From: a virus
Lineage: Duplodnaviria > Heunggongvirae > Uroviricota > Caudoviricetes
IMG/VR virus record: IMGVR_UViG_2778260993_000018
Span: 1 to 16,902 of that record
DNA length: 16,902 nt
Reading direction: 5' to 3' (one strand)
The position numbers and the translations under genes were made by a program. The notes under the pieces are model-generated. The model made no database searches and had not been told where the DNA came from. It worked only from the letters and a program-made list of their open reading frames with translations. How positions within the stretch are numbered: position 1 is the stretch's first letter; the number at the start of each line of letters is the position of its first letter. Below, one piece after another: positions 2,401 through 2,656 of this stretch.

Positions 2401-2656
2401 GTTTGCAAGGCTTTCGTAGTTTTGACATTGACGGTAGGTTGCAGCTCTATATCCGGCCTTGTTGCAGCCATGAAGCTGCGGGCCCCTATGTAATACGCTG
2501 ACTCGCGCCTTATTCTCCCAGCGAGCTTTAATCTCCAGAGCAGATTCAGGTTTAGCGAGTCCCGGTCTTACCTGTCGTTGTCATCACTACGGCTGCCCAC
2601 GCAACCTTTCAGCATTCACCCTTTTGTAAAGAGTTTATGTTTATCGGTATCAACGA
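2401..2656 (-). ncRNA. Candidate IS-encoded guide RNA (bridge RNA / seekRNA) in the non-coding region 3' of the transposase
   Basis: 256 bp without ORFs between the transposase stop and the right-end repeat. A 7-bp inverted repeat (GACTCGC at 2500-2506, GCGAGTC at 2555-2561) closes a 48-nt loop. Inside it, ATTCTCCC (2512-2519) is identical to the flank just outside the left IS end (3809-3816), and AGCAGAT (2539-2545) is the reverse complement of the flank just outside the right IS end (2376-2382). Exact RNA ends are unknown. Confidence 0.35.

What the first reader, a model, noticed from the sequence alone, without database searches (positions are those of the whole stretch)
2500..2561. Stem-closed loop 3' of the IS transposase carries two segments matching both IS-flanking sequences on opposite strands
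Inside the IS, a 7-bp inverted repeat (GACTCGC at 2500-2506, GCGAGTC at 2555-2561) encloses 48 nt. Within it, ATTCTCCC (2512-2519) is identical to the 8 bp just outside the left IS end (3809-3816), and AGCAGAT (2539-2545) is the reverse complement of the 7 bp just outside the right IS end (2376-2382). Recently described IS110-family bridge RNAs / seekRNAs have a target-binding loop with two guides that pair with opposite strands of the target, which is this arrangement. If correct, the RNA is still programmed for the site it occupies, so the target can be read directly. Each match alone could occur by chance (7-8-mers); the combination of position, strand sense and enclosing stem is what makes it notable.
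Basis: partly seen in the sequence, partly recalled or inferred. Interest (0 to 1): 0.75.

Follow-up and report, generated by a model that had tools for sequence, protein, structure and literature searches.

The report
Guide-RNA loop of an insertion sequence

Summary
All strings are where the finding says. The element is an IS1111-type member of the IS110 family, and its transposase is 92% identical to that of ISEc11, whose seekRNA has been characterised experimentally. The two segments occupy the same alignment columns as ISEc11's own target matches, in internal loops of a structure supported by compensatory changes (11 pairs; 0 of 500 shuffles reach this). Across 17 guide classes they covary with their own flanks (0 of 5000 permutations). 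This includes a single C/U guide change that tracks G/A in the target.

Two corrections:
- The true IS is 2385-3812 (7-bp and 3-bp terminal extensions, no duplication). Four of the eight "left flank" bases (GAAT) are therefore the IS's own left end. The right match starts 2 nt beyond the junction.
- The window site is near-cognate. Its paired right-hand bases lie 1 nt further from the junction than at the best-matched sites (IS66 tnpC, IS2 orfA start).

Beyond the finding:
- A second loop (2441-2498) reads the IS ends, giving a two-loop bridge RNA at 2432-2576(-).
- The whole clade inserts between a Shine-Dalgarno motif and the start codon.

Verdict: a new member of a known kind, of modest interest.

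The parts
2385..3812 (-). Complete insertion sequence, 1428 bp, IS1111 type, a relative of ISEc11 and ISEc66. In IS orientation it reads GAATGTA-[ATGAACGCATCCC ... GGGATGCGTTCAT]-ATA.
   Evidence: Empty sites L001/L002 read CTAAGGGA|AAAGCAGATG. Joining the flanks of copy L005 at the same ends gives an exact 300/300 intact IS66 tnpC. An identical 1428-bp copy exists in another genome (L004).
2657..3676 (-). Transposase gene, 339 aa (DEDD/RuvC-like domain plus Tnp domain, with a GLVPRQTGSG motif).
   Evidence: Pfam PF01548 and PF02371. 92% identity to TnpEc11. RefSeq annotates the identical protein in other genomes as 'IS110 family RNA-guided transposase'.
3793..3812 (-). Left end: 7-bp extension GAATGTA (3812..3806) plus the left subterminal inverted repeat ATGAACGCATCCC (3805..3793).
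2385..2400 (-). Right end: right subterminal inverted repeat GGGATGCGTTCAT (2400..2388) plus the 3-bp extension ATA (2387..2385).
2432..2576 (-). Whole two-loop guide RNA region (the 'long seekRNA' / bridge RNA equivalent), closed by a long-range stem GGUA (2572..2569) / UACC (2436..2433).
   Evidence: Covariance-model hit at 154 bits, E 9e-32. Consensus structure. Pair counts.
2500..2561 (-). Target-binding loop, the feature in the finding. Outer stem GACUCGC (2561..2555) / GCGAGUC (2506..2500). A further CCU (2550..2548) / AGG (2510..2508) closure. Inner hairpin 2535..2523.
   Evidence: Outer stem: 6 of 7 pairs show changes on both sides, and 98.3% of cells are paired.
2536..2546 (-). 5' guide (equivalent to a right-target guide), AAUCUGCUCUG. 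It pairs with the top strand to the right of the insertion point: 9 bp (AGAGCAGAT) at the IS66 and IS2 sites, 7 bp (AGCAGAT, 2382..2376) at the window site.
   Evidence: The C/U variant of the guide tracks G/A in the right flank.
2511..2522 (-). 3' guide (equivalent to a left-target guide), GCUGGGAGAAUA. It has the same sense as the top strand, so it pairs with the bottom strand of the left flank (GGGA) and continues into the first 4 nt of the IS left end (GAAU).
   Evidence: Its tail covaries with the left-end extension (GAAUGAG, GAAUAAG, AAAUG) among relatives.
2441..2498 (-). Second loop, which reads the IS ends. Basal stem GCG (2498..2496) / UGC (2443..2441). 5' guide AUUACAU (2494..2488), antisense to left-end positions 3-9, ATGTAAT. 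Inner stem GGCC/GGCC (2484..2481 / 2458..2455) with hairpin GCAGC/GCUGC. 3' guide AUAUAGA(G) (2452..2445), same sense as right end CATATA plus GA.
   Evidence: Each guide class matches its own ends best: the observed assignment scores highest of all 24 and of all 6 possible permutations. Pair 96/120 shows a C-G to U-A compensatory change in 7 sequences.
3813..3816 (-). Target-derived left half-site GGGA, the Shine-Dalgarno-like motif of the DUF5406 gene (...CTAAGGGA|).
2375..2384 (-). Target-derived right half-site AAAGCAGATG. Its last three bases (2377..2375) are the start codon of the DUF5406 gene (2006-2377), now cut off from its Shine-Dalgarno motif by the IS.

Best explanation
Region 2500-2561, read on the minus strand, is the target-binding loop of the guide RNA (seekRNA / bridge RNA) of an intact IS1111-type insertion sequence closely related to ISEc11.

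**Proposed mechanism.** The 3' non-coding region is transcribed together with the transposase gene, and the RNA binds the DEDD transposase.
- In the internal loop, the 5' segment AUCUGCUC(U) pairs with the top strand to the right of the insertion point. The ideal target there is A|GAGCAGAT.
- The 3' segment (CU)GGGAGA pairs with the bottom strand to the left (...GGGA|GA). Its extension AU matches the IS's own left end.
- The two matches overlap around the cut.
- A second loop immediately downstream (2441-2498) pairs in the same way with the two IS ends: AUUACAU with the left end, AUAUAGA with the joined right and left ends.
- Together the two loops bring the circularised IS and the target into register. 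The element is inserted without target duplication, here between the Shine-Dalgarno motif and the ATG of a prophage DUF5406 gene.

**Shown here:** sequence complementarity, guide-target and guide-end covariation, structural covariation, exact element boundaries, and homology to ISEc11.

**Inferred from ISEc11 and IS621 experiments:** transcription, processing, protein binding and the strand-exchange chemistry.
For: 1. The transposase has the family domains and is 92% identical to TnpEc11. For ISEc11, RNA from the 3' NCR co-purifies with the transposase, is required in cis or in trans, and can be reprogrammed (PMC11187229).
2. A covariance model built without the window lineage finds 2432-2576(-) at 154 bits, E 9e-32.
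3. Structure: 96.8% of cells are paired, against 23-37% when partners are slid by 1-3 columns. Eleven pairs have changes on both sides, reached by 0 of 500 shuffles. RNAalifold independently predicts the same helices and leaves both guides unpaired.
4. Guide-target covariation over 17 guide classes and 30 distinct sites:
   - 5' guide, mean longest exact match to its own target 6.19 against 3.88 when permuted (0 of 5000).
   - 3' guide, contiguous match to its own left flank 3.62 against 0.99 (0 of 5000).
5. A single-base natural experiment. Copies with AUCUGUUC (L007, L062, L064) sit at GAACAGATG. Copies with AUCUGCUC (L004, L005, L006, L063) sit at GAGCAGATG.
6. ISEc11's own target matches (ACAGUAUUU against AATACTGT; GUGAAAAU against GGTGA+AAAT) lie in the same alignment columns.
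7. Two prophages whose flanks are only about 92% identical on both sides carry an IS that is 1426/1428 identical at exactly the same position. That points to recurrent site-specific insertion.
8. G-U pairs outnumber A-C mismatches on the transposase-sense strand, as expected if that strand acts as RNA.
Against: - There are no expression data for this element.
- No internal promoter-like site precedes the RNA. This agrees with co-transcription from the tnp promoter or the circle-junction promoter, but it does not prove a transcript exists.
- The single-sequence fold is not exceptional: z = -0.94 for the 86-nt loop region and -2.12 for the whole non-coding region. The MFE structure adds a few weak pairs inside the guides.
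- Rfam 15 has no family that matches here.
- The window site matches the guides imperfectly: 4 nt on the left and 7 nt on the right, with the right match 1 nt out of the register seen at the best-matched sites.
- For ISEc11 the short 82-nt RNA, which would lack the second loop, sufficed for transposition. The role proposed here for the second loop is therefore not established experimentally.
Confidence: 0.9

Rival explanations
1. Coincidence: the two short matches and the 7-bp stem arose by chance and have no function.
For: Each match is only 7-8 nt. Under a relaxed test, 31 of 5000 shuffles of the non-coding region do as well. The single-sequence fold is unremarkable.
Against: Both exact strings occur together in only 6 of 200,000 shuffles. 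Guide-flank covariation across 17 guide classes is reached by 0 of 5000 permutations. Stems show compensatory changes. The independent covariance model hits at E 9e-32.
Confidence: 0.01
2. The stem-loop acts as DNA, not RNA. As in IS200/IS605 elements, single-stranded transposon DNA would pair with the target or cleavage site.
For: Sequence complementarity alone cannot tell whether the guide acts as RNA or as DNA. The loop lies near an IS end.
Against: For the 92%-identical ISEc11, the nucleic acid bound to the transposase is RNase-sensitive and DNase-resistant. The non-coding region also works in trans when transcribed from a T7 promoter. G-U pairs are tolerated on the sense strand, where the complementary strand would have C-A. 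The transposase is a DEDD/serine type, not a HUH enzyme.
Confidence: 0.03
3. The protein chooses the site and the RNA is only a structural cofactor. The loop-flank matches would then reflect a shared preference for ribosome-binding-site-like sequence, not base pairing.
For: The G of the ATG and the following A are conserved at the sites but are not covered by the guide. The constant parts of both guides resemble SD and ATG motifs shared by every site.
Against: The variable guide positions track the variable spacer bases of each site, down to a single C/U-G/A change. Null pairings that keep the shared SD/ATG features score much lower. ISEc11 was retargeted by changing only the RNA and the flanks.
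Confidence: 0.05

Closest known systems
ISEc11 seekRNA (Siddiquee, Pong, Hall & Ataide 2024, Nat Commun; PMC11187229)
   Same: The transposase is 92% identical and also 339 aa. Both have subterminal inverted repeats, 7-bp and 3-bp extensions, and a 3' non-coding region. The RNA scaffold aligns over 146 columns. The top-strand match lies 5' of the bottom-strand match in the same columns. The two matches overlap at the insertion point. There is no target duplication.
   Different: Both guides are programmed differently: AUCUGCUC and GGGAGA here, ACAGUAUUU and GUGA in ISEc11. The first two bases of the IS are GA, not AA, with a matching change in the second loop (AUAUAGA against AUAUAAA). The preferred targets are GGA|GAGCAGATGA in IS66 tnpC and the IS2 orfA start, not GGTGA|AATACTG. 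No experiments exist for this element.
IS621 bridge RNA (Durrant et al. 2024, PMC11208160; Hiraizumi et al. 2024, PMC11208158)
   Same: A two-loop RNA, one loop for the target and one for the IS ends. Each loop is a stem, a guide, a stem-loop and a second guide. One guide pairs with the bottom strand on the left, the other with the top strand on the right. Guide extensions match the partner DNA, reminiscent of handshake guides.
   Different: The RNA lies 3' of the transposase gene, not 5'. Guide order within each loop is reversed. The subterminal inverted repeats are long. The extension into partner DNA sits on the left-type guide and spans 2-7 nt. No fixed core dinucleotide is evident: the two bases after the right end vary among sites (GA, AA, GC, GT, GG, AT).
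ISEc66, ISXne4 and unnamed relatives in Xenorhabdus, Photorhabdus, Brenneria, Symbiopectobacterium, Sodalis and Erwinia
   Same: The same scaffold with different guides, each matching its own flanks. This is the natural retargeting described for ISEc11 and ISXne4.
   Different: The window IS is about 89% identical in DNA to ISEc66. RefSeq gives it no specific IS name, so it is probably an unnamed or separately named member.
IS900 of Mycobacterium avium subsp. paratuberculosis (IS110 family); Doran et al. [quoted passage not shown]
   Same: An IS110-family element reported to insert at translation-initiation signals. That is the site class seen for the whole clade here.
   Different: IS900 belongs to the IS110 group, a distant relative. 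It is said to use the captured signals for a gene on the strand opposite the transposase (hed). Here the left end offers only a short, unconserved ORF of 2-33 codons. The details of the IS900 target consensus rest on my memory and were not checked.

Membership tests
IS110 family, IS1111 group | Transposase with a DEDD (RuvC-like) N-terminal domain and the PF02371 C-terminal domain carrying the GL-P----S/TG motif | tested here: met
   PF01548 (E 6e-13) and PF02371 (E 6e-22). GLVPRQTGSG is visible in the translation. The motif is as described.
IS110 family, IS1111 group | Subterminal inverted repeats with short terminal extensions (7 bp on the left) | tested here: met
   ATGAACGCATCCC / GGGATGCGTTCAT, with a 7-bp left and a 3-bp right extension. 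The ends are fixed by the empty site and by exact reconstitution of IS66 tnpC. The 7-bp requirement is quoted.
IS110 family, IS1111 group | Long non-coding region downstream of the transposase gene | tested here: met
   272 nt between the stop codon (2657) and the IS end (2385). The left non-coding part is 136 nt.
IS110 family, IS1111 group | Sequence-specific, orientation-specific insertion without target-site duplication | tested here: met
   The empty site is the left flank plus the right flank, with no bases added. The same position is occupied in two diverged prophages. The same sites recur in IS66 and IS2.
seekRNA / bridge RNA | A stem-closed internal loop holding one segment complementary to the top strand and one to the bottom strand of the target, meeting at the insertion point (top-strand match 5' in the IS1111 type) | tested here: met
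   The order and columns are the same as in ISEc11.
seekRNA / bridge RNA | Guides covary with target sequence among related elements (programmability in nature) | tested here: met
   Permutation tests give 0 of 5000 for both guides. A single-base C/U-G/A case is seen.
seekRNA / bridge RNA | Conserved secondary structure supported by compensatory substitutions | tested here: met
   Eleven pairs have changes on both sides, reached by 0 of 500 shuffles. The slid controls collapse. RNAalifold agrees.
seekRNA / bridge RNA | [quoted passage not shown] | tested here: met
   AUUACAU against left-end ATGTAAT, and AUAUAGA against right end plus GA. Four and three guide classes each match their own ends best (1/24 and 1/6 permutations). 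Statistical power is limited. For ISEc11 this region is not required.
seekRNA / bridge RNA | The RNA is expressed, bound by the transposase and required for excision and insertion | not testable with these tools
   Shown for ISEc11 only. No internal promoter-like site was found here.
Rfam families | Match to a curated covariance model | tested here: not met
   Rfam 15 has no hit above its thresholds at 2400-2660. The only weak hit is ssnA, 16.8 bits against a gathering score of 37.3. I take this to mean that no Rfam 15 model covers this RNA.

The most novel reading that the evidence does not exclude
The ISEc11/ISEc66 clade may be built to hit translation-initiation regions.

- The constant parts of its two target guides pair with a Shine-Dalgarno-like motif (..GGAG/AGGA) and with (C)AT of the start codon.
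- The variable part reads the gene-specific spacer, so each variant knocks into the start of one particular gene.
- It tolerates 6-8 nt between the cut and the ATG.
- The target's right half (GA-N5-ATGA) mimics the IS's own left end (GAATGNN-ATGAAC), suggesting a pseudo-symmetric complex in which the protein reads ATGA on both DNAs.
- The second loop, whose role was left open for ISEc11, would be a true donor-reading loop.

In the papers I could search, none of this was stated for this clade.
Probability: 0.35. Interest if true: 0.5.

Novelty: new member of a known kind. Interest (0 to 1): 0.3.

Why it matters
This is a naturally retargeted relative of the one IS1111-type element whose guide RNA has been dissected experimentally. 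Its guides, exact ends, cognate sites (IS66 tnpC, the IS2 orfA start) and a tolerated near-cognate site can all be read from sequence.

That gives a ready-made panel of more than 17 natural guide-target pairs on one scaffold. The panel could be used to learn the pairing rules of IS1111-type recombinases: guide length, tolerance of mismatches and register shifts, and the role of the second loop.

Biologically, it shows this IS cutting a prophage gene off from its ribosome-binding site. It also shows the IS preferentially disrupting other insertion sequences.

It does not reveal a new mechanism.

Tried and rejected
- **Rfam.** Both E-value and gathering modes gave nothing relevant at the locus.
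- **Single-sequence folding.** Not informative on its own (z -0.94 and -2.12). The case rests on comparative data.
- **Promoter and terminator scan of the IS.** Counts did not exceed the shuffled expectation, and nothing lies upstream of the RNA.
- **Exact-pattern scan of viral contigs for the loop.** No match.
- **Search for an intact IS2 with the joined flanks of L007.** The top rows were dominated by partial matches to other IS2 copies and did not give a clean empty site. The IS66 test did.
- **A fixed 2-nt 'core' as in IS621 (GA shared by donor and target).** I considered this. It fits the IS66 and IS2 sites, but the two bases after the right end vary widely among sites. I therefore kept the simpler no-duplication description.
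- **A conserved leader peptide starting at the ATG in the left inverted repeat.** Rejected, because the ORF varies from 2 to 33 codons and is conserved only over MNAS, which is encoded by the repeat itself.
- **Literature searches for ribosome-binding-site targeting by IS1111-type elements.** Nothing specific was found. Only the IS900 precedent turned up.

Full report
**1. The observation**

All strings are present at the stated coordinates:
- GACTCGC at 2500-2506 and GCGAGTC at 2555-2561.
- ATTCTCCC at 2512-2519 and at 3809-3816.
- AGCAGAT at 2539-2545, the reverse complement of 2376-2382.

Both exact strings occur together in 6 of 200,000 shuffles of the 274-nt non-coding region.

**2. What the element is**

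The ORF at 2657-3676(-) encodes a 339-aa protein with Pfam DEDD_Tnp_IS110 and Transposase_20. It is 313/339 identical to the ISEc11 transposase. ISEc11 is the IS1111-type element used to define the seekRNA:
- An RNA from the 3' non-coding region co-purifies with the transposase.
- It is needed in cis or in trans for circle formation and insertion.
- It carries one match to the top strand and one to the bottom strand of the target.
- It can be reprogrammed (PMC11187229).

RefSeq already labels the identical protein in other E. coli genomes 'IS110 family RNA-guided transposase'. The DNA is about 89% identical to ISEc66.

**3. True boundaries**

- Uninterrupted versions of the window's locus read CTAAGGGAAAAGCAGATGAAC (L001, L002). 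The occupied site reads CTAAGGGA-GAATGTAATGAACGC...GTTCATATA-AAAGCAGATG.
- This fits the family convention of a 7-bp left extension before the subterminal repeat and a 3-bp right extension.
- The same ends applied to a copy inside IS66 (L005) give joined flanks that match an intact IS66 tnpC exactly, 300 of 300.
- The IS is therefore 2385-3812 (1428 bp), inserted without duplication between GGGA and AAAGCAGATG.
The right-hand match starts 2 nt beyond the junction.

**4. Comparative evidence for the guide loop**

I collected:
- Identical or near-identical copies at other sites (L003-L007, L062-L064).
- ISEc11 itself (L057), ISEc66 (L058) and two other E. coli relatives (L059, L060).
- Relatives with 56-88% protein identity from Xenorhabdus, Photorhabdus, Brenneria, Symbiopectobacterium, Sodalis and Erwinia.

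Structure:
- On 25 distinct sequences, a seven-helix structure has 96.8% of cells paired, against 23-37% when partners are slid by 1-3 columns.
- Eleven pairs show changes on both sides, reached by 0 of 500 shuffles.
- The outer stem named in the finding varies on both sides at 6 of its 7 pairs.
- RNAalifold independently predicts the same helices and leaves both segments unpaired in internal loops.
- A covariance model built from 17 relatives, excluding the window lineage, gives a single hit in the window at 2432-2576(-): 154 bits, E 9e-32.

**5. Guides track targets**

Read as RNA on the minus strand, the loop is:

5' GACUCGC-UAAACCUGA-AUCUGCUCUG-GAGAUUAAAGCUC-GCU-GGGAGAAU-AAGGC-GCGAGUC.

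- The 5' segment is antisense to the top strand on the right of the insertion point.
- The 3' segment has the sense of the top strand on the left, so it pairs with the bottom strand.
- This is the order reported for IS1111-type seekRNAs. ISEc11's own matches (ACAGUAUUU to AATACTGT; GUGAAAAU to GGTGA+AAAT) fall in the same columns.

Over 17 guide classes and 30 distinct sites:

| Guide | Own target | Permuted | Permutations reaching observed |
|---|---|---|---|
| 5' guide, mean longest exact match | 6.19 nt | 3.88 nt | 0 of 5000 |
| 3' guide, contiguous match to left flank | 3.62 nt | 0.99 nt | 0 of 5000 |

Examples of 5' guides and right flanks:
- AUGAUCCCUU with AGGGATCATG (L011).
- AUGAUGUGUC with GATACATCATG (L016).
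- AUGAUUGACA with GTCAATAATG (L023).

The cleanest case is a single base. Copies with AUCUGUUC (L007, L062, L064) sit at GAACAGATG in IS2. Copies with AUCUGCUC (L004, L005, L006, L063) sit at GAGCAGATG.

**6. This copy is at a near-cognate site**

- The guides predict roughly TGGGA|GAGCAGAT.
- At the IS66 tnpC site (CTGGAA|GAGCAGATGAAG) and the IS2 orfA start (CATTGGA|GAACAGATGATTG), 9 contiguous bases pair with the 5' guide.
- In the window the right flank is AAAGCAGATG. Only 7 bases pair (AGCAGAT), and they lie 1 nt further from the junction than at those sites.
- On the left, 4 target bases (GGGA) match.
- The same position is occupied in strain C5, where both flanks are only about 92% identical to the window's (360/390 and 362/390) but the IS is 1426/1428 identical. 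This suggests an independent, reproducible insertion.
- A variable distance between junction and paired bases is also seen in Symbiopectobacterium, where one guide occurs at sites with the ATG 6, 7 or 8 nt from the junction.
- So 'the target can be read directly from the loop' is true for the consensus but not exactly for this site.

**7. Beyond the finding: a second loop**

Directly 3' of the target loop the RNA forms a second stem, internal loop and hairpin (2441-2498).
- Its 5' strand AUUACAU is antisense to positions 3-9 of the IS left end (ATGTAAT).
- Its 3' strand AUAUAGA(G) has the sense of the right end plus the first bases of the left end (CATATA|GA), that is, the circle junction.
- Both covary with the ends among relatives:
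  - AUCUCAU with ATGAGAT.
  - AUGACAU with ATGTCAT.
  - AUCUUAU with ATAAGAT.
  - AUACAGA with CATACA|GA.
  - AUAUAAA with CATATA|AA.
- The observed assignment scores highest of all 24 and of all 6 possible permutations. Power is limited by the small number of classes.
- One inner-stem pair shows a C-G to U-A compensatory change in 7 sequences.
- This gives the two-loop architecture of bridge RNAs: the left guide pairs with the bottom strand and the right guide with the top strand. It also agrees with the statement that IS1111 elements carry predicted bridge RNAs in their right end.
- For ISEc11 the short 82-nt RNA was sufficient, and the role of the long form was left open. The function of this second loop is therefore inferred, not shown.
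- The 3' target guide also continues into the IS left end (GAAU here; up to GAAUGAG or GAAUAAG in relatives, covarying with the end). That matches the integrated left junction. It recalls both the requirement for correct flanks during ISEc11 excision and the handshake guides of IS621.

**8. Site class**

- 29 of 30 distinct sites of the clade have an ATG 6-8 nt downstream of the junction in almost every case. 23 of them open an ORF of at least 50 codons. 18 have an SD-like motif in the last 8 nt of the left flank.
- Annotated examples are the starts of DUF5406 (window, C5), IS2 orfA, an amino-acid ABC-transporter binding protein (ISEc66), a phage C40 peptidase and emrA.
- The IS66 site is internal to tnpC but has the same look (GGAAGAGCAGATGA).
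- Targeting of translation-initiation signals has a precedent in the IS110 family, for IS900 (Doran et al. 1997, cited in PMC8141618). I found no such statement for IS1111-type elements in the searchable literature.

**9. Context**

The IS lies in the left arm of a lambdoid prophage:
- Integrase, 1-1287(-).
- DUF5406, 2006-2377(-).
- SPFH protein, 3846-4673(-).
- Two CI-like repressors.
- Duplicated Ash/Rha modules, each with isrK and C4 RNAs.
- DnaB.

The insertion separates the DUF5406 start codon (2377..2375) from its Shine-Dalgarno motif.

**10. Verdict**

The mechanism is known (2024). What is new is this member's guide programme and targets, plus comparative support for a donor-reading second loop and a start-codon-region preference in the clade. 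Interest is modest.

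Noticed in passing
window 2375-2384 and 3813-3816; loci L003-L064: The whole ISEc11/ISEc66 clade inserts between a Shine-Dalgarno-like motif and a start codon. 29 of 30 distinct sites have an ATG downstream of the junction (6-8 nt in almost every case), and 23 of them open an ORF of at least 50 codons. 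The constant parts of the guides pair with GGAG/AGGA and with (C)AT of the ATG. The G of the ATG and the following A are conserved but are not covered by the RNA.
   Followed up: partly
window 2441-2498 (-): A second internal loop downstream of the finding carries AUUACAU (antisense to the IS left end) and AUAUAGA(G) (sense of the right end plus GA). Both covary with the IS ends among relatives. For ISEc11 the role of this part of the long seekRNA was left open.
   Followed up: partly
window 3725-3805 (-): After insertion the host Shine-Dalgarno motif lies 7 nt upstream of the ATG that begins the left inverted repeat. This opens a 26-codon ORF (MNASQLFEYEAGVGRKSVEPRRFPAS) in the same reading frame as the transposase ORF, but it stops about 50 nt before the transposase start codon. 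In relatives the ORF is 2-33 codons long and is conserved only over MNAS, so it is probably not a peptide gene. A role in translation entering the IS was not tested.
   Followed up: partly
L004 and L063 (also L006): Some copies have hybrid flanks: the left flank is IS2 (…TAGACTAGTCATTGGA) and the right flank is IS66 tnpC (GAGCAGATGAAGCTCGC). L006 has IS2 on both sides but reads GAGCAG where IS2 has GAACAG. This suggests recombination between IS copies at different sites, or conversion of bases next to the junction.
   Followed up: no
L017-L039 (Symbiopectobacterium purcellii): There are many copies of one relative. The same guide (AUGGUGUGUU) is found at sites that share only CCATG and have 6, 7 or 8 nt between the junction and the ATG. 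Pairing therefore seems to be anchored at the start-codon end, with slack near the cut. Several downstream ORFs are short, so they may be pseudogenes.
   Followed up: no
window 9082-9270 and 9929-10117 (+): There are two tandem copies, about 847 bp apart, of an isrK sRNA followed by a C4 antisense RNA (Rfam, 57 and 80 bits each). Each lies within an Ash/Rha-type antirepressor ORF (8854-9687 and 9875-10723). This looks like a duplicated prophage immunity/antirepressor module.
   Followed up: no
window 6208-6933 (-) and 7056-7835 (-): Two adjacent HTH repressor-like genes. One has an S24 peptidase domain (CI/LexA-like); the other has HTH_3 plus a weak CI-repressor match. They sit upstream of the duplicated antirepressor modules.
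   Followed up: no
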